The notes under the pieces are model-generated. The model did not search any database. It saw only the letters and a program-made list of their open reading frames with translations, and was not told where the DNA came from. Of a stretch of DNA of 39,674 nt, positions 6,910-13,977 are shown piece by piece. Location: assembly GCA_037141555.1 (NCBI GenBank), contig JBAXCI010000001.1, positions 1 through 39,674 of the forward strand, in the 5' to 3' direction. The position numbers and the translations under genes were made by a program. This stretch comes from Verrucomicrobiota bacterium. Its GTDB lineage: Bacteria > Verrucomicrobiota > Verrucomicrobiia > Chthoniobacterales > Chthoniobacteraceae. Numbering within the stretch: the first letter of the stretch is position 1; the number at the start of each line of letters is the position of its first letter.

Positions 6910-7050
6910 GCCGCGGAGGATATGGGGTCAGAGCGCACAGAAAAGGAAAAATTTACTCCATTTGGAAACGAGGCGGAGAGTCCACCACGGAGCGCAACGG
7001 ATTTCAGTTGAGTTTTCCCTTCACCTCTGAAAAGTTACCCCACTTCCATT

Positions 7051-7656
7051 ATGACGCCCGAATCTGCCCAGACCGTTCATCTGACCCCGCTTGAGATTTG
7101 GTATATGTACAAGACCAAAATCTTGACGTATGCCGGGATCATTACCGCCGCTCTGGCCTCCTTCGCCGCATACCAGCTTTACGACTACCTGCGCACCTCC
7201 GGTTCGCAGAACCTCTACGCGAAAGCCGAGACGGTGGCCGATTTCGAGGCGCTCGTGAAGCAATATCCCGGCACGCCTGCGGCCGGCAACGCGGCGCTGC
7301 GCATGGCCGAAAAACTCCGCGCGGAAAAGAAATACGACGCATCCGCGGCTGTGCTGCGCAAATTCGTCGAGAAATTCCCGGCGCATCCGCTGGCTGCCGG
7401 TGGCTGGACGAGCCTCGGCGCGACTTACGAGATGCAGGGCAAACTGGACGAGGCTTTCGAAGCCAACGCGAGCGCGATTTCCAAATATCCCGATGCCTAC
7501 ACCACGCCCATCGCCATGATGTCGCAGGCGCGGATTTATCTGCTCAAAGGCAAAAGAGACAACGCCCGGCAGATTTACCAGGATGTTGCCGCGCGTTATA
7601 AGCAGAACCTCTACGGACAAGAGGCGTTGCGGGAACTCCATTTCCTCAAGAAGTAG
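7051..7656 (+). CDS. Membrane-anchored TPR-like protein (YfgM/YbgF-like)
   Basis: One N-terminal TM helix (ILTYAGIITAALASFAAYQLY) is followed by TPR-like helical repeats (AALRMAEKLRAEKKYDASAAVLRKFVEKFP..., LGATYEMQGKLDEAFEA...). Confidence 0.7.
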   Translation: MTPESAQTVHLTPLEIWYMYKTKILTYAGIITAALASFAAYQLYDYLRTSGSQNLYAKAETVADFEALVKQYPGTPAAGNAALRMAEKLRAEKKYDASAAVLRKFVEKFPAHPLAAGGWTSLGATYEMQGKLDEAFEANASAISKYPDAYTTPIAMMSQARIYLLKGKRDNARQIYQDVAARYKQNLYGQEALRELHFLKK

Positions 7657-8044: not shown

Positions 8045-9061
8045 TTACCGCTGCACGCGGCCGCTGCCGTCGCCTTTGACGAGCGCTTCCACCTCTTCAA
8101 GTGTTGCGCGGTTGTAGTCGCCGGGGATGGTGTGCTTGAGGGCGCTCGCCGCCACGGCAAACTCGATGGCTTGCTGCGGTGCGTCGCCGCGCAACGAGGC
8201 AAAGATCAACCCGCCGCCGAACGAATCGCCGCCGCCCACGCGGTCGATGACGTTCAGGTCAAACTTGCGCGAGTAATACGCTTTGCCGCCGCTCCAGAGC
8301 ATCGCGCTCCAACCGTTGTGGCTGGCGGAGTAGGATTCGCGCAGCGTGATGGCCACCTGCTTGAAGCCGAACCGCTCGGTGAGCTGCCGGGCCACGTCTT
8401 CATATTGTGCGTGCTCGATCTTGCCGCTGGTCACTTCCGCGCCGTGGATGCCAAAAACGCTCTCGGCGTCTTCTTCGTTGGCGATGCACACGTCCACGTA
8501 TTGCATGAGCTTGCCCATGACCTCGCCCGCTTTTTGTTTGCTCCAGAGTTTTTTACGGTAGTTGAGGTCCGTGCTGATGGTGAGGCCCATTTGCCTGGCC
8601 ACCTTGCAAGCTTCCTCCACGACCGCCGCCGCGTTGTCGGAGAGGGCCGGGGTGATGCCGGTCCAATGGAACCAGCGGGCGCCTTTGAAAGCGGCTTCCC
8701 AGTTCACCTCGCCCGGCTGGATCTCGGCGATGGCCGAGTGCGCGCGGTCGTAAGTCACCTTGGAAGCGCGCTGGCTGGCGCCGGTTTCCAGGAAATAGAT
8801 GCCGATGCGCTCGCCGCCGCGCGCGATGTGGCCGGTGCCGACCCCGATGCCGCGCAGTTCGTTGATGGCGCGCTGGCCCATGTCGTTCTTGGGCAGCCGG
8901 GTCACGAAATCAGCCGAGAGGCCGTAGTTCACCAACGAGACAGCCACATTCGCCTCACCGCCACCGTAGGTCAGTTCAAGGGCGGAGGTTTGAGCGAAGC
9001 GGAGGAAGCCGGGCGTAGCCAGGCGCATCATGATTTCACCAAAAGTTACAACGTCAGACAT
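8045..9061 (-). CDS. kdgK: 2-dehydro-3-deoxygluconokinase / PfkB-family sugar kinase
   Basis: Begins MSDVVTFGEIMMRLATPGFLRFAQTS...GGGEANVAV and has the PfkB C-terminal motif DRVGGGDSFGGGLIFA. The ATG was verified at 9061-9059. The 92-aa upstream extension in the ORF track overlaps prcA and has arginine-rich junk composition. Confidence 0.88.
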   Translation of the reverse strand: MSDVVTFGEIMMRLATPGFLRFAQTSALELTYGGGEANVAVSLVNYGLSADFVTRLPKNDMGQRAINELRGIGVGTGHIARGGERIGIYFLETGASQRASKVTYDRAHSAIAEIQPGEVNWEAAFKGARWFHWTGITPALSDNAAAVVEEACKVARQMGLTISTDLNYRKKLWSKQKAGEVMGKLMQYVDVCIANEEDAESVFGIHGAEVTSGKIEHAQYEDVARQLTERFGFKQVAITLRESYSASHNGWSAMLWSGGKAYYSRKFDLNVIDRVGGGDSFGGGLIFASLRGDAPQQAIEFAVAASALKHTIPGDYNRATLEEVEALVKGDGSGRVQR

Positions 9062-9123: not shown

Positions 9124-9861
9124 TTACGGCTTCACTGCGCGGAAGGTGGCATTGGAAGGGGCGCGACGGTCCAGCAGCACGGCTTCCACCGTTCCCGTGC
9201 GCAGTTGCTCCTGGCGATGCTCGGCGATTTGCTCGGACCCGGGAAGCTCTCCCTCCTCGCGCGCCAGCGTCAGATGCCCCACGGTCCACGCCTCCAACGC
9301 AACGGGCAGCGCCTCGGCGCTCGACAAATGCGCGCATTTTTTCCCGCTCAGGAATTTTTCCATCATCCTGGTGGAATGCTCCTTGCCCGAGATCGCCGCG
9401 AACCGCTCCACCGCTCCCGCCTTGGTCTGGAAAGAGCCGTCGTAGTCCAAACGCAACAGCAGATCGGGTTCGCCGTTGCGGCCCAGCTCCGCGAAAAGCA
9501 TCCGCGCCAGAAAAGGCGGGCCGTAGATTTGCTCGAACGCGTTTTTGAGCACCGGGCTCAGCGAATAAGCGGCCATCCGGCGCAGCGAAACGTCGTTGGC
9601 AGACCGGTTAAATCCTTCCGCGCTTGCCACCTCGATCGCGCTCATCCGCAGCCGTTCGATGTCGCCGGGATGGCCGATCCCGCCCATGGCGATCCGGTCA
9701 TAAATCTCAAAGAGCTTCTGTTGCTCGCGGCTCACGGTGACGAAGAGCACGCCGTCCGCGCAACTGAGCGCGGCGATGGGACTCCCGGCGGCGAGCTGAT
9801 TTTCAATGTATTCGCGGCGGTTGGCAATCGCCTCGACCCAGCGGTATGGTTCTTCTGTCAT
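9124..9861 (-). CDS. prcA: Bacterial-type 20S proteasome alpha subunit
   Basis: 245 aa. ...GVLFVTVSREQQKLFEIYDRIAMGGIGHPGDIERLRMSAIEVASAEGF... and the C-terminal VEAVLLDRRAPSNATFRAV parallel actinobacterial PrcA (ELYDRVGFAAAG..., LEVAVLDANRPRRAFRRI). Its ATG overlaps the prcB TGA (ATGA at 9861-9858). Confidence 0.88.
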   Translation of the reverse strand: MTEEPYRWVEAIANRREYIENQLAAGSPIAALSCADGVLFVTVSREQQKLFEIYDRIAMGGIGHPGDIERLRMSAIEVASAEGFNRSANDVSLRRMAAYSLSPVLKNAFEQIYGPPFLARMLFAELGRNGEPDLLLRLDYDGSFQTKAGAVERFAAISGKEHSTRMMEKFLSGKKCAHLSSAEALPVALEAWTVGHLTLAREEGELPGSEQIAEHRQEQLRTGTVEAVLLDRRAPSNATFRAVKP

Positions 9862-10736
9862 TCGGTTTCGACCAGGGTAAGAGCGTTTTTGGGGAGCGAC
9901 TGGAGATCGCGTTGATAAGCCTTCACCAACACCGCCTCGGGCAGCGTGGAAATGCCGGATTGGTTGACGATTTTGACCAGCGGATAGACGCGTCCGTGGC
10001 GGTCCACCCCCCCGGTGGCAGTGTCGTTCTCCGCCGCCGTATCAAGCGCCCGCAATGCCATGAGCACCGCCTCCTCCTCGTTCATCTTTGCCAGAGGACG
10101 CGGTCCGTAAGCGTTCGCGTATTGCAACACCGCCCGCACAGAGGGGGAGCCGGAACCGGAGGCCGCGAAGTCCGCCACCTCAAATTTTGCCCCCATCACG
10201 TCGTAGAAATAAAGGCGCGGCACGGCCTCCTCTGTATCATAGGCGGCAAAGAGCGGCACCACGACGCCCACCCCCTGCATCGCCATCCCGAGATTGTCGC
10301 GCAGCAGCTTGGAAAGCGCGCGCACCTTGCCGTCCATGCTCAACTCCTGGAGCTGGCTGCGGCGGTAAAACTGGAACGAATGCTCCAGCGTCCGCGCCAT
10401 TTCCCAAGCCGTCGCGGGCACCCCGGCAATCGCCATCAGGGAATGGCGGTCGATTTCAAGCACCTTGTCCGCGCGATCGTACACCACGAGATTGCCCGCC
10501 GTCGCCCGGCGATCCCCCGCCACGAGCACGCCGCTGCAAAACTTGAAGGCGAGAATCGTCGTCGCCTGCGTTTGCAACCCGGCGAGCAATGGGTTCTGCG
10601 CCTGGGCGGCTGCACTGGCCTGCACCGGAGTCGGCTCCGGGATCACCCCATAGCGGCGCAACACCGAGGTAAAATCGGGCATTGCCCCCGGGAGGTCCCC
10701 TCCCCCGCTCCCCGTTCCAAAGTTTTCCATACTCAT
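9858..10736 (-). CDS. prcB: Bacterial-type 20S proteasome beta subunit, with propeptide
   Basis: A propeptide of about 58 aa is followed by the catalytic N-terminal Thr context QA/TTILAFKFCSGVLVAGDRRAT. An alternative ATG at 10730 is preceded by GGAG. Confidence 0.9.
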   Translation of the reverse strand: MSMENFGTGSGGGDLPGAMPDFTSVLRRYGVIPEPTPVQASAAAQAQNPLLAGLQTQATTILAFKFCSGVLVAGDRRATAGNLVVYDRADKVLEIDRHSLMAIAGVPATAWEMARTLEHSFQFYRRSQLQELSMDGKVRALSKLLRDNLGMAMQGVGVVVPLFAAYDTEEAVPRLYFYDVMGAKFEVADFAASGSGSPSVRAVLQYANAYGPRPLAKMNEEEAVLMALRALDTAAENDTATGGVDRHGRVYPLVKIVNQSGISTLPEAVLVKAYQRDLQSLPKNALTLVETE

Positions 10737-10909
10737 TCTCCGGTGCGTTGGCGGTAGCGTTTGGATTGATCGGGATCGACTCTACGCATCCTCTTTAATA
10801 AATCCTTCGTGTCGGGTTTCGAGACATCGGGCGATTTTGGCCCACCGCTGTCTCCCTCTTTGGGCCCCCAAGGAGCAGGGGCAACCGGGCGTTGAGTCCT
10901 CTCTGGCAT
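10733..10909 (-). CDS. Ubiquitin-like modifier of the Pup/UBact type (58 aa, C-terminal Gly-Glu)
   Basis: Hand-translated base by base: ATG at 10909-10907 through TGA at 10735-10733 gives MPERTQRPVAPAPWGPKEGDSGGPKSPDVSKPDTKDLLKRMRRVDPDQSKRYRQRTGE. It is absent from the ORF track because it is shorter than 60 aa. The stop overlaps the prcB ATG (ATGA). It has a disordered P/G/K-rich N-terminal half and a helical basic C-terminal half ending in GE. Confidence 0.82.
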   Translation of the reverse strand: MPERTQRPVAPAPWGPKEGDSGGPKSPDVSKPDTKDLLKRMRRVDPDQSKRYRQRTGE

Positions 10910-10979
10910 AATCGGGTAGGGTTAAAAGTCCAAATTGCAGGGCTTGCCTTCGCTGCGCAGCCGTGAGAAAAGTAGAGCC

Positions 10980-11615
10980 ATGCACCGTTGGTTTCGTTTC
11001 TGCGCTGGGATCGCGCTTATGGCTTTTGCACAAAGCGCCATGGCACAATCGACTGCTTCAAACGCCCCTGGAAAAGCCGGGGCGGGCGACGAAGTACCGA
11101 TCTCCAAACACCAACTCAAAGCGACCCCCACGCAGATCCTGCAACACAACCTGGACCAGCAGGGCAAACAGATGGAACAATTGAGCGGGCTGATCGAGGC
11201 GCAGACCAAGCAAATCGAAGAGCTCACCAAGCGGGCCGAGTTGCAAACCAAGCAAATCGAGACCCTCAACGCCGACTTGAACCGCCTCACCGGCATCCTG
11301 CTCTCGCGCAACGCCGAGCCCGCCGCGCCCAGTTCCCAACAGCGCCCTGCGGCCGCTCCCACCGTCCAAACCGCCGAACCACCCGTAGCCAAAGCGGAAC
11401 CCGTTCCCGCAGAGCCCGAGGCGACCACGGCCCCCGACGGGACGCCCACCCACGTCATCAAGCGCGGCGAAAACCTCATTTCCGTCGCCCGCCAGCACGG
11501 CACGACGGTTTCCGAACTGCTCAAGCTCAACAAAATCGAAGACGAGCGAAAGCTGCAAATCGGCCAGACCCTTCTCCTCCCAAAACCCACCTCCCCCAAA
11601 ACAGATAGCCAATAG
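10980..11615 (+). CDS. Secreted coiled-coil protein with a C-terminal LysM domain
   Basis: Signal peptide MHRWFRFCAGIALMAFAQSAMAQS, a heptad-like region (QMEQLSGLIEAQTKQIEELTKRAELQTKQIETLNADLNRL), and LysM (THVIKRGENLISVARQHGTTVSELLKLNKIEDERKLQIGQTLLLP). Confidence 0.8.
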   Translation: MHRWFRFCAGIALMAFAQSAMAQSTASNAPGKAGAGDEVPISKHQLKATPTQILQHNLDQQGKQMEQLSGLIEAQTKQIEELTKRAELQTKQIETLNADLNRLTGILLSRNAEPAAPSSQQRPAAAPTVQTAEPPVAKAEPVPAEPEATTAPDGTPTHVIKRGENLISVARQHGTTVSELLKLNKIEDERKLQIGQTLLLPKPTSPKTDSQ

Positions 11616-11619
11616 CAAC

Positions 11620-12147
11620 ATGGACGATTCACCTAGATGGTTTCTCATGAAGCAGGCAGACGGCGCCGTATTCGGCCCGATGCCCCTCAGCCAACTCCGC
11701 CAATGGGCTCTGGATGCCTGCATTTCCCCGCTGGACAAAGTCTCCAGCGACGAAATCAACTGGATGAAAGCCCCGATGCTTCCCGAGTTGGACATGGATT
11801 TCCTCCTGGAGGTCGAACCCGGCCTTTTCTACGGCCCGACCACCATCGGCACCGTCCGCGAGTTTTTGACCAGCGGCGAAATCTCTTTGGAAGCCCTGCT
11901 CACCAACTGCCACACCGGCGAGCAAAAACCGCTGCGGGAATTCCCACAGATATTCCAAGCTCCAGAAAAGAAGAGCGATGCTCCGATCATCCGCGTGAGC
12001 GCCCGGGAAAATCTGCAAGCGCGCATCCGTCAACTCGAAGAAACCCTGCTCCACGAGCGGCTTTTGCGGAAAACCTCCGAAGAACTCCGGAGCAAGGCCG
12101 AAGCGCGCGTCGCCGAACTGGAAGATATTCTGGGAATCGGGGGCTGA
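11620..12147 (+). CDS. GYF_2 (DUF4339)-like domain protein with a C-terminal coiled coil
   Basis: RWFLMKQADGAVFGPMPLSQLRQWA... and a second similar segment (FYGPTTIGTVREFLTSGEISLEALL) resemble GYF_2 repeats. It starts 5 nt after the LysM gene stop. Confidence 0.6.
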   Translation: MDDSPRWFLMKQADGAVFGPMPLSQLRQWALDACISPLDKVSSDEINWMKAPMLPELDMDFLLEVEPGLFYGPTTIGTVREFLTSGEISLEALLTNCHTGEQKPLREFPQIFQAPEKKSDAPIIRVSARENLQARIRQLEETLLHERLLRKTSEELRSKAEARVAELEDILGIGG

Positions 12148-12181: not shown

Positions 12182-12985
12182 ATGTTTTCCCGTATTTTAT
12201 TCCTACTCCTGCTGGCGGGAACGCCGTTCGCGACCGCAGCCCCTTCGCCGCTGACGGCGAGGGAACTTGCCGCCGTTACCAAGGTCGAATCGGTCTCCGT
12301 GCCGACTCCAGCCGAAGCGATGGCCGCCTTGGGCAAGGTCGCCAAGCCGAACTGGCAATCCCGCTACCGCGCCCCCATTCCCACCACCTTTTCCAACCGC
12401 GCGCAGATCGCCCTCAACATCGGCGGGCTCATCGCCGACGGCTACATCGCCGTGGAAGCCGAGGATGCCCAGCAAGTCAAAAACACCGGCAAAGACATCA
12501 TCGCTTTGGCCAAATGCCTCGCCATCAGCGAAACCGTCATCGCCAGGGGCAACAGCATCTTTGAATTCGCCGAGCGCAACGAGTGGAACACCCTCAAGGA
12601 AGAACTCGAAGCGACCCAAAACGACGTCAAACTCTCGCTCCAACAACAGCACGACGCAGATCTCGTCTGCCTGGTGAGCCTTGGAGCGTGGATTCGCGCC
12701 ACGGAGATCCTGAGCGGCTGGATCGCGGAAAACTACACCCCCGCCGCCGCCAAGCTGCTGCGCCAACCCGAGATCATCGCCCTCATGCGGGCCAAACTCG
12801 AGGGCCTGCCAGCCAAGGCCAAGGAAGACCCGCTCGTCGCCGACCTCATCACCGGGCTACCCGAGTTGGAGGCACTGGTCTCTTTTTCCAGCGACAAAAC
12901 GCCCACTCAAAACGATGTTAAGGCGGTGAAGGAAATTTCCACCAAGCTCATGAAACGCATTTCCACCAAACCCAACGCGAAATGA
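12182..12985 (+). CDS. Hypothetical secreted all-alpha protein
   Basis: Signal peptide MFSRILFLLLLAGTPFATAAP and good coding composition. No family recognised. Confidence 0.6.
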   Translation: MFSRILFLLLLAGTPFATAAPSPLTARELAAVTKVESVSVPTPAEAMAALGKVAKPNWQSRYRAPIPTTFSNRAQIALNIGGLIADGYIAVEAEDAQQVKNTGKDIIALAKCLAISETVIARGNSIFEFAERNEWNTLKEELEATQNDVKLSLQQQHDADLVCLVSLGAWIRATEILSGWIAENYTPAAAKLLRQPEIIALMRAKLEGLPAKAKEDPLVADLITGLPELEALVSFSSDKTPTQNDVKAVKEISTKLMKRISTKPNAK

Positions 12986-13013
12986 ATTCAGAAGAGGGAA
13001 GAAGAGAAATGTT

Positions 13014-13037
13014 ATCAGGAAATCAGGAAATCAGGAG
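13014..13037. repeat. Solo arm of the CAGGAA octamer repeat (atcaggaa x3)
   Basis: atcaggaaatcaggaaatcaggag lies in the short gap before the probable ATG at 13069. The unit is the same as at 27934-27957 and 35494-35507. No inverted partner is nearby. Confidence 0.75.
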
Positions 13038-13068
13038 AGGAAAGGGAATTTCGGTACGCACGGTTGCC

Positions 13069-13497
13069 ATGCTTTTCGTATGCGCCGCTGCCCTGCCAGC
13101 CTTCGGCGCGCCGGAACCGGCCAATTCGCCCACCGACGCCGAGGTCCAAGCGCGAGCCAGCGCCCTTGAAGTCGCGGGAGCTTTTTCCAACGAAGGCTTC
13201 AAAAGCCGCGACGGCCACACCTTCGGGAAAATCGCCACCAAGGAACCGAAGTTCATCCAGGTCAACCTGTACTCCGGCAACCAATACTGGTTCATCGCCG
13301 CCGCCAGCGGTCCCGCCAAACGGATCGCGGTCGCCGTCTTCGACGAGAAAGGGAAGTTCGTTCCCACCGAGCTTTACGAAAACAACGCCCAAGCGGCAGC
13401 GGGATTTTCTCCCCAGGCGAGCGGCCCCTACATCATCCGCGTCGAAGAACTCAGCGGCGAACCCGCCACCTTCTGCCTGCTTTACAGCTACAAATAG
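13069..13497 (+). CDS. Hypothetical secreted protein
   Basis: MLFVCAAALPAFGAPEP is a signal peptide. The track's longer ORF (from 12982) would translate the octamer repeat, so the start at 13069 is preferred. Confidence 0.6.
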   Translation: MLFVCAAALPAFGAPEPANSPTDAEVQARASALEVAGAFSNEGFKSRDGHTFGKIATKEPKFIQVNLYSGNQYWFIAAASGPAKRIAVAVFDEKGKFVPTELYENNAQAAAGFSPQASGPYIIRVEELSGEPATFCLLYSYK

Positions 13498-13509
13498 AGG
13501 GCAATCGCC

Positions 13510-13977
13510 ATGGAATCTGCCACAACGACCACCGAAAAAATCTCCGGGCCACGGGTCAAACAGTTCTCCGTATTCCTGCCCAACAAAGTCGGCGCCCTCT
13601 CGGAAATCGTCAAACTGCTCCATGAGCACAACATCGACGTTCTGGCCCTGGATGTTCAGGACTCGGCGGATTGCGCCATTGTCCGCATCGTCGTAAGCGA
13701 CCCGGAACAGACGCAGGAGCTTTTTGGGCTGCACGACATCCCGCTTGCCATGAGCAGCATCGTCGTCGTGGAACTGCGCGGAGGTGCCAGCGAACTGCCC
13801 AAACTCCTCGCCGCCCTGCTCATGGCCGAAGTCAACATCCACAGTTGCTACGGCCTTTTGACCCGTCCGCGCGGCAATACCGCCCTGGCCCTGCATGTGG
13901 AAGACAACGATTGCGCGGTCGCCGTCCTCACCAGCCACAGCTTCCGGGTTTTGAGTCAGCTCGATATTTCGCGTTAG
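13510..13977 (+). CDS. ACT domain-containing protein (tandem ACT)
   Basis: VKQFSVFLPNKVGALSEIVKLLHEHNIDVLALDV... and a second ACT-like half (IVVVELRGGASELPKLLAALLMAEVNIHSCY). Confidence 0.7.
   Translation: MESATTTTEKISGPRVKQFSVFLPNKVGALSEIVKLLHEHNIDVLALDVQDSADCAIVRIVVSDPEQTQELFGLHDIPLAMSSIVVVELRGGASELPKLLAALLMAEVNIHSCYGLLTRPRGNTALALHVEDNDCAVAVLTSHSFRVLSQLDISR

What the first reader, a model, noticed from the sequence alone, without database searches (positions are those of the whole stretch)
10733..10909. Hidden 58-aa ORF encodes a Pup/UBact-type modifier translationally coupled to the proteasome genes
Seen in the sequence:
- The minus strand between prcB and the divergent LysM gene reads ATG (10909) to TGA (10733). 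The product is MPERTQRPVAPAPWGPKEGDSGGPKSPDVSKPDTKDLLKRMRRVDPDQSKRYRQRTGE.
- At 58 aa it is below the 60-aa threshold of the supplied ORF track, so automated calling would miss it too.
- Its TGA shares ATGA with the prcB ATG, and prcB and prcA overlap the same way. This makes a three-gene coupled unit.

Established knowledge:
- Pup-family modifiers are about 60-aa intrinsically disordered proteins encoded directly upstream of prcB-prcA. They are ligated through a C-terminal Glu.
- The tail here (LLKRMRRVDP..RYRQRTGE) is not the actinobacterial ...YVQKGGQ/E. It matches what I recall of UBact, the Pup homologue reported around 2017 for Gram-negative phyla including Verrucomicrobia and Nitrospirae. 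That recollection is from memory and needs verification.

Inference: the terminal Glu implies no deamidation step is needed before conjugation.
Basis: partly seen in the sequence, partly recalled or inferred. Interest (0 to 1): 0.85.

Follow-up and report, generated by a model that had tools for sequence, protein, structure and literature searches.

The report
Uncalled UBact gene heading proteasome operon
The 58-codon reading frame is a real, strongly conserved gene for UBact, a small Pup-like protein tag already described in 2017, placed directly in front of the two proteasome genes; it is a routine member of a known family that gene callers skipped in this sequence.

Summary

- **The ORF:** window 10733-10909 (-) encodes the quoted 58-aa peptide. 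It scores 88.4 bits on NCBIfam NF033388 (cut-off 35) and 82.8 bits on Pfam PF20513 (cut-off 27.8), both UBact models.
- **Conservation:** it is intact in 83 of 84 related Chthoniobacterales loci. Selection is strongly purifying (dN/dS about 0.06).
- **Position:** it sits directly upstream of prcB-prcA. The UBact stop overlaps the prcB start in 68 of 84 loci.
- **"Hidden" is literally true here:** two public assemblies 99-100% identical to the window leave it uncalled. NCBI does name orthologues "ubiquitin-like protein UBact".

What is not textbook is the layout. The canonical cluster Mpa-Dop-UBact-PrcB-PrcA-PafA is seen in *Methylacidiphilum* and other lineages. It is broken up in this order:
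- the window has no ligase, deamidase or ATPase;
- a PafA-type ligase exists in the order, but mostly as a lone gene elsewhere;
- I found no Mpa or Dop in about 2 Mb of related DNA.

Whether they exist elsewhere in these genomes could not be tested. Conjugation itself is inferred and has never been shown for UBact.

The parts
10733..10909 (-). UBact gene. It encodes a 58-aa, basic (pI 10.1) peptide that is Pro/Gly-rich and probably disordered, ending ...RYRQRTGE.
   Evidence: Translation. NF033388 scores 88.4 bits (cut-off 35) and PF20513 scores 82.8 bits (cut-off 27.8). Intact in 83 of 84 loci, with dN/dS about 0.06. AlphaFold2 gives pTM 0.26, with helices only at residues 34-43 and 48-56.
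9858..10736 (-). prcB, the proteasome beta subunit. It has a propeptide of about 58 residues, and the mature N-terminus is TTILAF... An alternative start lies at 10730.
   Evidence: PF00227 scores 102 bits. TIGR03690 scores 175.8 bits, below its cut-off of 191.9. It aligns to Rhodococcus beta1 2h6j_H and M. tuberculosis PrcB, with Thr1, GDRRAT and DKV in place.
9124..9861 (-). prcA, the proteasome alpha subunit. Its start overlaps the prcB stop (ATGA).
   Evidence: PF00227 scores 31 bits. TIGR03691 scores 73.6 bits, below its cut-off of 139. PDB matches to bacterial 20S alpha subunits at about E 1e-12.
10910..10979 (.). 70-bp divergent intergenic region between the UBact ATG and the LysM ATG. 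It is presumed to hold the promoters of both units.
   Evidence: Coordinates. No sigma-70-like consensus was found there, so the promoter assignment is inference only.
10980..11615 (+). Divergent LysM-domain gene with a predicted signal peptide (MHRWFRFCAGIALMAFAQSAMA). It is a conserved neighbour, and no functional link to UBact is known.
   Evidence: PF01476. A LysM homologue lies on the opposite strand within 900 bp of UBact in 71 of 76 loci. Public callers start the gene at 11040.
11620..12147 (+). GYF_2-domain gene, the second member of the conserved divergent pair.
   Evidence: PF14237 scores 25.4 bits, just under its cut-off. It is present beside LysM in 52 of 76 loci. In Chthoniobacter-type genomes it lies between the PafA-type ligase and UBact.
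8045..9061 (-). pfkB-family sugar kinase, 62 bp downstream of prcA on the same strand. It may be co-transcribed but is not part of the conserved cassette.
   Evidence: PF00294. Gene call in L176/L177. Relatives have an amidase, trmD or a glycosyltransferase at this position instead.

Best explanation
The ORF is the gene for UBact, the Pup-like small protein modifier of non-actinobacterial phyla. The genome belongs to Chthoniobacterales (Verrucomicrobiota).

Shown:
- It is a genuine protein-coding gene under strong purifying selection.
- It is a full-length member of the UBact family.
- It is the first gene of a conserved UBact-prcB-prcA cassette. Overlapping stop and start codons fit coupled translation with a catalytically intact 20S proteasome.

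Inferred from Pup biochemistry and from the canonical UBact clusters:
- The disordered peptide is ligated through the gamma-carboxylate of its C-terminal Glu to lysine side chains of target proteins. The ligase would be a PafA-family ATP-dependent enzyme.
- Because the terminal residue is already Glu, no prior deamidation is needed.
- The two short C-terminal helices are the part recognised by the ligase and by a proteasomal ATPase. The ATPase would then feed the tagged protein into the PrcAB core.

In this genome the ligase, any Dop-type depupylase and any Mpa-type ATPase must be encoded outside the 39.7-kb window.
For: - **Family:** NF033388 88.4 bits against a cut-off of 35, covering the whole profile 1-54/54. 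PF20513 82.8 bits against 27.8.
- **Homologues:** 270 close homologues all carry PF20513, and some are named UBact by NCBI and JGI. An exhaustive search of 1.84 billion representatives finds one compact family of 160 clusters sharing the ...[KR]Y[RK]QR[ST]G[EQ] tail.
- **Real gene:** intact in 83 of 84 loci, always with an ATG at the same Met. Synonymous sites are saturated (pS 0.79, pN 0.13, dN/dS about 0.06), and third-position variability is 5-8 times that of positions 1 and 2. N-terminal extensions in longer gene calls are unconserved.
- **Operon:** UBact-prcB-prcA is present in 82 (prcB) and 79 (prcA) of 84 loci. Stop and start overlap in 68 of 84.
- **Proteasome competence:** propeptide and Thr1/Asp17/Lys33 context are conserved against 2h6j_H.
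- **Link to the pupylation machinery:** M. infernorum V4 (L086) and a second lineage (L091-L094) have Mpa-Dop-UBact-PrcB-PrcA-PafA. A PafA-family ligase is widespread in Chthoniobacter(aceae). It lies 1.2-1.7 kb from UBact in L005, L046, L088-L090, L095, L096, L100 and L107.
- **Shape:** AlphaFold2 shows no globular fold and two C-terminal helices. This matches the bihelical unit plus tail that Iyer et al. 2008 predicted for Pup (PMC2588565).
Against: - No experiment on UBact conjugation was found in the literature held. UBact appears only as a 2017 bioinformatic identification.
- Homology to Pup is not statistically demonstrable here. The recognition region has the opposite charge, so transferring the Pup mechanism is an analogy.
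- The window and 77 of 80 lone-ligase loci show no physical linkage of UBact to a ligase.
- No Mpa-type ATPase or second (Dop-type) ligase paralogue was found in about 2 Mb of Chthoniobacterales DNA around UBact or the ligase.
- None of the 120 best Mpa hits lies on a contig shared with Chthoniobacterales UBact or ligase hits.
- The order's ligase scores below both the PafA and Dop equivalog cut-offs: 320 and 318 bits against 551 and 492.
Confidence: 0.8

Rival explanations
1. UBact here is not a conjugated tag. It is a non-covalent proteasome cofactor, such as an assembly chaperone, gate regulator or adaptor, made in step with PrcB and PrcA. That would explain why it stays welded to prcBA while the ligase is usually elsewhere.
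For: - UBact-prcB-prcA is the invariant unit. The ligase is within 10 kb in only 2 of 84 UBact loci, and UBact is near the ligase in only 3 of 80 ligase loci.
- No Mpa or Dop was found nearby.
- Translational coupling suggests production matched to the proteasome subunits.
Against: - The most conserved part is the extreme C-terminus RYRQRTG[EQ], with free alternation of only E and Q at the last position. That is exactly the signature of a residue used as a gamma-carboxylate donor after optional deamidation.
- A PafA-family ligase is conserved at 65-83% identity across the order.
- In other lineages the same family sits inside complete pupylation clusters.
Confidence: 0.1
2. The ORF is an upstream leader ORF. 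Its translation only serves to load ribosomes onto prcB, and the peptide itself has no function.
For: It is short and directly abuts prcB, with overlapping stop and start codons. No obvious Shine-Dalgarno sequence or promoter was seen.
Against: The amino-acid sequence is conserved, not merely the frame: 24 invariant positions and dN/dS about 0.06. It belongs to a family found in several phyla.
Confidence: 0.03
3. It is a chance ORF in G+C-rich DNA.
For: Many ORFs of 40-100 codons occur by chance in this window.
Against: HMM E-values of 1e-23 to 1e-25, intactness in 83 of 84 loci, and codon-position-specific variation.
Confidence: 0.01

Closest known systems
UBact (Lehmann, Udasin, Livneh & Ciechanover 2017, BBRC 483:946; NCBIfam NF033388, Pfam PF20513)
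   Same: - Full-length match to both curated models.
- The same invariant tail ...RYRQRTG[EQ].
- The same position immediately upstream of prcB-prcA.
- The same phylum as a reference case: M. infernorum V4 (L086) scores 83.6 bits on NF033388.
   Different: The canonical six-gene cluster Mpa-Dop-UBact-PrcB-PrcA-PafA is reduced here to UBact-PrcB-PrcA. A conserved divergent LysM/GYF_2 pair lies beside it. The ligase is elsewhere in the genome, or in some relatives beyond that pair. Mpa and Dop were not found.
Pup, the actinobacterial prokaryotic ubiquitin-like protein (Pfam PF05639; e.g. M. tuberculosis Pup, PDB 7px9_G / 3m9d)
   Same: - About 60 aa with no globular fold.
- A helix-prone C-terminal half.
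- A terminal Gly-Glu/Gln.
- The gene lies directly upstream of prcB-prcA.
- A local pattern TxDLL...[RK]xYxQ[KR]xG[QE] aligns the two C-termini end to end (PMC2588565).
   Different: - No significant sequence match: nothing on PF05639 at E<=10, and hhalign E=0.068.
- Basic rather than acidic: pI 10.1 against 4.05.
- The tail is TGE rather than GGQ/E.
- Rich in proline.
Pup-proteasome gene neighbourhood as defined by Iyer, Burroughs & Aravind 2008 (PMC2588565)
   Same: A small G[EQ]-terminated modifier associated with archaeal-type proteasome subunit genes. Verrucomicrobia are explicitly listed among the lineages that carry it.
   Different: That paper states that Pup is 'invariably' adjacent to a PafA gene. 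In this window and in 82 of 84 related loci, no PafA-family gene lies within 10 kb.

Membership tests
UBact (NF033388 / PF20513) | Score above the curated cut-off of the family HMMs over the full profile | tested here: met
   NF033388 scores 88.4 bits against 35, covering profile 1-54/54. PF20513 scores 82.8 bits against 27.8, covering profile 2-43/43.
UBact (NF033388 / PF20513) | Small protein (about 50-100 aa) ending in the conserved ...[KR]Y[RK]QR[ST]G[EQ] tail with a terminal Glu or Gln | tested here: met
   58 aa ending RYRQRTGE. The tail is shared by the distant family members.
UBact (NF033388 / PF20513) | Gene immediately upstream of prcB-prcA | tested here: met
   Coordinates. Conserved in 82 (prcB) and 79 (prcA) of 84 loci.
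UBact (NF033388 / PF20513) | Embedded in the cluster Mpa-Dop-UBact-PrcB-PrcA-PafA (canonical locus, as in M. infernorum) | tested here: not met
   No PF03136 or Mpa-type protein was found among the window ORFs, and tblastn with the M. infernorum Mpa, Dop and PafA gives no hit in the window. The canonical layout was seen in L086 and L091-L094. This is a feature of the locus, not of the protein family.
UBact (NF033388 / PF20513) | The same genome encodes a PafA-family ligase, a Dop and an Mpa ATPase | not testable with these tools
   Only 39.7 kb of the genome is available. A PafA-type ligase is present in the order. Mpa and Dop were not found in about 2 Mb of related loci, but no whole genome could be searched.
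UBact (NF033388 / PF20513) | Covalent conjugation to lysines of target proteins | not testable with these tools
   This needs proteomics or biochemistry. No experimental report was found in the literature held.
Pup (PF05639) | Match to the Pup HMM or to solved Pup sequences | tested here: not met
   No PF05639 hit at E<=10. No Pup chain was hit in the PDB. hhalign gives E=0.068 with probability 0.8%.
Pup (PF05639) | C-terminal Gly-Gly-Gln/Glu and an acidic helix-forming region | tested here: not met
   The tail is Thr-Gly-Glu. The last 27 residues hold 9 K+R against 5 D+E, where Pup has 2 against 9. Only the looser G[EQ] signature of Iyer et al. is met.
Bacterial 20S proteasome (PrcB/PrcA) | Ntn-hydrolase beta subunit with a propeptide and catalytic Thr1, plus a paired alpha subunit | tested here: met
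   PF00227 hits both proteins. Alignments to 2h6j_H and 1q5q_A. Both score below the actinobacterial NCBIfam equivalog cut-offs, so they are divergent.

The most novel reading that the evidence does not exclude
Chthoniobacterales, including the very abundant soil genus Udaeobacter, may run a stripped-down UBact system of UBact, PrcB, PrcA and a single PafA-type enzyme, with no Dop and no Mpa. Most UBacts in the order end in Gln. The single ligase, or an unrelated amidase, would then have to deamidate as well as ligate. Tagged proteins would reach the 20S core through a different ATPase or without one. The always-adjacent LysM/GYF_2 pair could be part of such a variant system.
Probability: 0.12. 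Interest if true: 0.7.

Novelty: new member of a known kind. Interest (0 to 1): 0.3.

Why it matters
- **For annotation:** a functionally important 58-codon gene is missing from public gene calls of this very sequence and of several related contigs. Any inventory of "proteasome system components" in these soil bacteria is therefore incomplete unless UBact is searched for with its HMM.
- **For biology:** the window adds nothing new about what UBact is. The survey does show that in the whole order Chthoniobacterales the textbook six-gene cluster has come apart. At least 558 matching stretches were found in species genomes of this order, which includes some of the most abundant soil bacteria. UBact stays fused to prcBA, while the ligase wanders.
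- **A testable question:** does a dispersed or reduced pupylation-like system still work, and how? It is relevant that UBact conjugation has never been shown experimentally.

Tried and rejected
- **Pup membership.** Pfam at E<=10, a PDB profile search and hhalign all failed to link the peptide to Pup significantly. I file it under UBact only.
- **Ligase or ATPase in the window.** All ORFs of 400 aa or more, plus the neighbours of UBact, were scanned with Pfam and by tblastn using M. infernorum probes. None was found.
- **ABC exporter mistaken for Mpa.** A 607-aa gene family that recurs upstream of UBact in 55 loci looked like a candidate Mpa. It is an ABC exporter.
- **Finding Mpa or Dop of Chthoniobacterales.** A concatenated M. 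infernorum Mpa+Dop query returned only Mpa hits, and the Dop half was outcompeted. The three hit contexts inspected were canonical clusters of other lineages. A cluster look-up gave no organism names. The metagenome scan with the order's ligase found lone ligase genes beside unrelated housekeeping genes. The question stays open.
- **Genome scan.** The scan of named genomes with the UBact alignment was saturated by Chthoniobacterales, so it gave no cross-phylum view. The exhaustive representative search supplied that view instead.
- **Original paper.** The 2017 UBact paper is not in the library. Its content is cited only through its title and reference entries.
- **Promoter and terminator scan.** It found nothing useful in the 70-bp intergenic region.
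- **4nb5_A.** This DNA-binding protein ends ...RYSQRTGE. At E=0.56 I treat the match as chance.

Full report
**Observation**

The minus strand of the window carries an ORF from ATG (10909) to TGA (10733).

Its stop codon lies inside an ATGA that contains the first ATG of the prcB ORF (9858..10736). prcB and prcA (9124..9861) overlap in the same way. A second in-frame ATG lies 2 nt after the UBact stop, and public gene callers used that one. The nearest relatives have only the overlapping ATG.

Upstream and divergent, 70 bp away, is a LysM-domain gene with a plausible signal peptide.

**Is it a real gene?**

Short ORFs are common in this 60% G+C window, so the ORF alone proves nothing. The following results do.

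- **HMM scores.** The peptide scores 88.4 bits (E 2.6e-25, cut-off 35) on NCBIfam NF033388 'ubiquitin-like protein UBact', over the whole profile. It scores 82.8 bits (cut-off 27.8) on Pfam PF20513.
- **Close homologues.** A search of 5.8 billion proteins found 270 close homologues (74-93% identity among the 120 listed), all carrying PF20513. Several are named UBact in Chthoniobacter or Chthoniobacteraceae.
- **The start codon.** Longer gene calls differ only by unconserved N-terminal extensions. The conserved part always starts at the MPER/MPDR methionine.
- **Spread.** A scan of one genome per species found at least 558 matching stretches. The best 80 are all Chthoniobacterales, Udaeobacter or 'Spartobacteria'.
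- **Integrity.** In 83 of 84 loci the 58-codon ORF is intact and starts with ATG.
- **Selection.** Synonymous sites are saturated (median pS 0.79) while pN is 0.13. dN/dS is about 0.06 where it can be computed. Variability by codon position is 0.07/0.05/0.37.

**Was it hidden?**

Yes, for this sequence.
- Two ENA metagenome contigs match the window: L177 is 100% identical over 16.9 kb and L176 is 99.2-99.4% identical.
- Both contain the identical ORF in a 310-bp stretch with no called gene between LysM and prcB.
- The gene was also skipped in L089, L095 and the locus.
- NCBI and JGI pipelines do call and name orthologues elsewhere. The gene is therefore missed by some callers, not unknown.

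**The operon**

- **prcB.** It has a propeptide of about 58 residues. The mature N-terminus TTILAF...GDRRAT...DKV aligns with the Rhodococcus and Mycobacterium beta subunits.
- **prcA.** It matches bacterial alpha subunits.
- **Divergence.** Both subunits score below the actinobacterial equivalog cut-offs.
- **Conservation.** UBact-prcB-prcA is conserved across the order.
- **Junction.** Across the window plus 83 loci, the junction is TAATG in 49, GTGA in 13 and ATGA in 6 (the window is one of these). Eleven have a gap of 0-15 nt and 5 are unclassified.
- **Downstream genes.** These vary between genomes. The pfkB kinase that follows prcA here is specific to this lineage.

**Relation to Pup**

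- The peptide does not hit Pfam Pup at E<=10, nor any solved Pup chain.
- I recalled the M. tuberculosis Pup sequence from memory and verified it as 100% identical to PDB 7px9_G.
- Against it, hhalign aligns the two C-termini end to end (PDTKDLLKRMRRVDPD----QSKRYRQRTGE against EETDDLLDEIDDVLEENAEDFVRAYVQKGGQ). The result is E=0.068 with probability 0.8%.
- UBact is basic (pI 10.1) and Pup is acidic (pI 4.05).
- AlphaFold2 with 31 homologues gives pTM 0.26, no structure in residues 1-33, and two short helices at 34-43 and 48-56. This resembles the bihelical unit plus tail that Iyer et al. predicted for Pup.
- The resemblance to Pup is therefore one of architecture and terminal chemistry, not demonstrable sequence homology.

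**Family breadth**

An exhaustive phmmer search of 1.84 billion representatives found only 160 clusters at E<=1e-3. All share ...[KR]Y[RK]QR[ST]G[EQ].

**Where are the partner enzymes?**

- **In the window.** It encodes gyrA, a polysaccharide deacetylase, purB, a TPR protein, pfkB, prcA, prcB, UBact, LysM, GYF_2, two hypotheticals, an ACT protein, kdsA, lptC/A/B, hprK, an MFS transporter, a class II tRNA synthetase, rho, carA and a MacB/HlyD pump. There is no Pup_ligase and no Mpa-type ATPase.
- **The canonical cluster.** M. infernorum V4 (CP000975.1, L086) has Mpa-Dop-UBact-PrcB-PrcA-PafA. So do two other lineages.
- **Near UBact in this order.** I used the M. infernorum proteins as tblastn probes. 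Only 2 of the 84 Chthoniobacterales UBact loci (L005 and L046) have a PafA-family gene within 10 kb. None has Mpa or a second ligase paralogue.
- **The ligase in this order.** It is widespread. The 120 best hits are 71-83% identical, and some are named 'PafA2 family protein [Chthoniobacter sp.]'.
  - In Chthoniobacter-type genomes the order is: ligase (plus strand), GYF_2 and LysM (minus strand), then UBact, prcB, prcA and an amidase (plus strand).
  - A metagenome scan returned 80 ligase loci. In 77 the ligase is a lone gene among unrelated housekeeping genes, with no Mpa and no second ligase.
- **Which type of ligase.** It scores 320 bits on the PafA model, matched end to end. It scores 318 bits on the Dop model, where the first 83 model positions are missing. 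Both scores are below cut-off. It is 45.6% identical to the M. infernorum PafA-position protein and 38.7% to the Dop-position protein. It is therefore PafA-type.
- **Mpa and Dop.** Whether the order has them could not be settled.
  - The 120 best Mpa hits share no contig with Chthoniobacterales UBact or ligase hits. That includes the 5.6-Mb and 7.8-Mb complete genomes.
  - This is only suggestive, because more distant homologues would not be listed.
  - Brewer et al. (bioRxiv 10.1101/053942) state that Ca. [quoted passage not shown]

**Terminal residue**

- Among the 120 closest proteins, 89 end in Q and 29 in E. Among the loci, 71 end in Q and 12 in E.
- The state flips between otherwise identical peptides. 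L009 ends in E while L024, L065, L069 and L073 end in Q. L006 (E) and L007 (Q) are 98% identical.
- In established Pup biochemistry, Gln must be deamidated by Dop before PafA can ligate, and Glu is ligation-ready.
- The free E/Q alternation implies that a deamidating activity is available throughout the lineage. This is an inference.

**Mechanism**

- **Shown:** gene reality, family membership, operon structure, a competent 20S core, and the existence of a PafA-type ligase in the order.
- **Inferred:** ligation of the C-terminal Glu gamma-carboxylate to substrate lysines, recognition through the two C-terminal helices, and delivery to PrcAB.
- **Not shown anywhere in the literature held:** UBact conjugation itself. 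UBact appears only as the 2017 bioinformatic identification by Lehmann et al., cited in PMC12751074 and PMC5751360.

**Verdict**

The finding is correct and well read by the first stage, but it is a new member of a known family, not a discovery. The modest added value has two parts:
- documented evidence that gene callers drop this gene;
- the order-wide break-up of the canonical cluster, which departs from the statement in Iyer et al. 2008 that Pup is 'invariably' adjacent to PafA.

Interest: 0.3.

Noticed in passing
window 10980-12147 (+); also L088 11476-12518, L090 12021-13091, L095 11455-12462: A LysM gene (with signal peptide) and a GYF_2-domain gene lie divergently beside UBact. LysM is present in 71 of 76 related loci and both genes in 52 of 76. 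In Chthoniobacter-type genomes the pair sits between the PafA-type ligase and UBact, as if inserted into the old cluster. Its function and any link to the proteasome are unknown.
   Followed up: partly
P0385, on a 286-kb ENA contig: A 1033-aa protein carries Pup_ligase (PF03136), AAA and Prot_ATP_ID_OB_N domains and covers 96% of the concatenated Mpa+Dop query. It appears to be a fusion of Mpa and Dop in one polypeptide.
   Followed up: no
L176 and L177 6001-6177; L089 about 8756-9055; L095 about 12462-12763; locus at 13459-13681: The UBact gene is left uncalled in several public assemblies from ENA, Logan and JGI, including canonical six-gene clusters. Published component inventories probably under-count it.
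   Followed up: yes
L009 vs L024, L065, L069 and L073; L006 vs L007; L070, L077 and L079 vs L064: The last residue of UBact switches between Glu and Gln (a single G/C change in the first codon position) among peptides that are otherwise 98-100% identical. This suggests that neither state is selected against.
   Followed up: partly
L096-L175 (80 soil-metagenome loci): In 77 of 80 loci, the PafA-type ligase of this order is a lone gene. Its neighbours are unrelated genes: a PDZ protease, NAPRTase, thioredoxin, GluRS and an ABC exporter. No UBact, prcBA, Mpa or second ligase lies in the flanks.
   Followed up: yes
window 9124-10736 (-): prcB (175.8 bits against a cut-off of 191.9) and prcA (73.6 against 139) both fall below the NCBIfam bacterial 20S equivalog cut-offs. 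prcA barely passes Pfam Proteasome (31 bits). These subunits are markedly divergent from the actinobacterial ones on which the models were built.
   Followed up: partly
window 7021-7656: The 206-aa minus-strand ORF 7021..7641 has no family hit and is probably a shadow ORF. Public gene calls place a 201-aa TPR protein on the plus strand at 7051..7656.
   Followed up: partly
PDB 4nb5_A, residues 138-163: A 171-aa 'DNA binding protein' ends ...RYSQRTGE and aligns to the UBact tail at E=0.56. This is probably chance.
   Followed up: no
window 12182-13497 (+): Two overlapping hypothetical genes (267 and 171 aa, no Pfam hit) and an ACT_8 gene follow GYF_2. This trio recurs in only 7 of 84 related loci. 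It occupies the place where Chthoniobacter-type genomes have the ligase.
   Followed up: no
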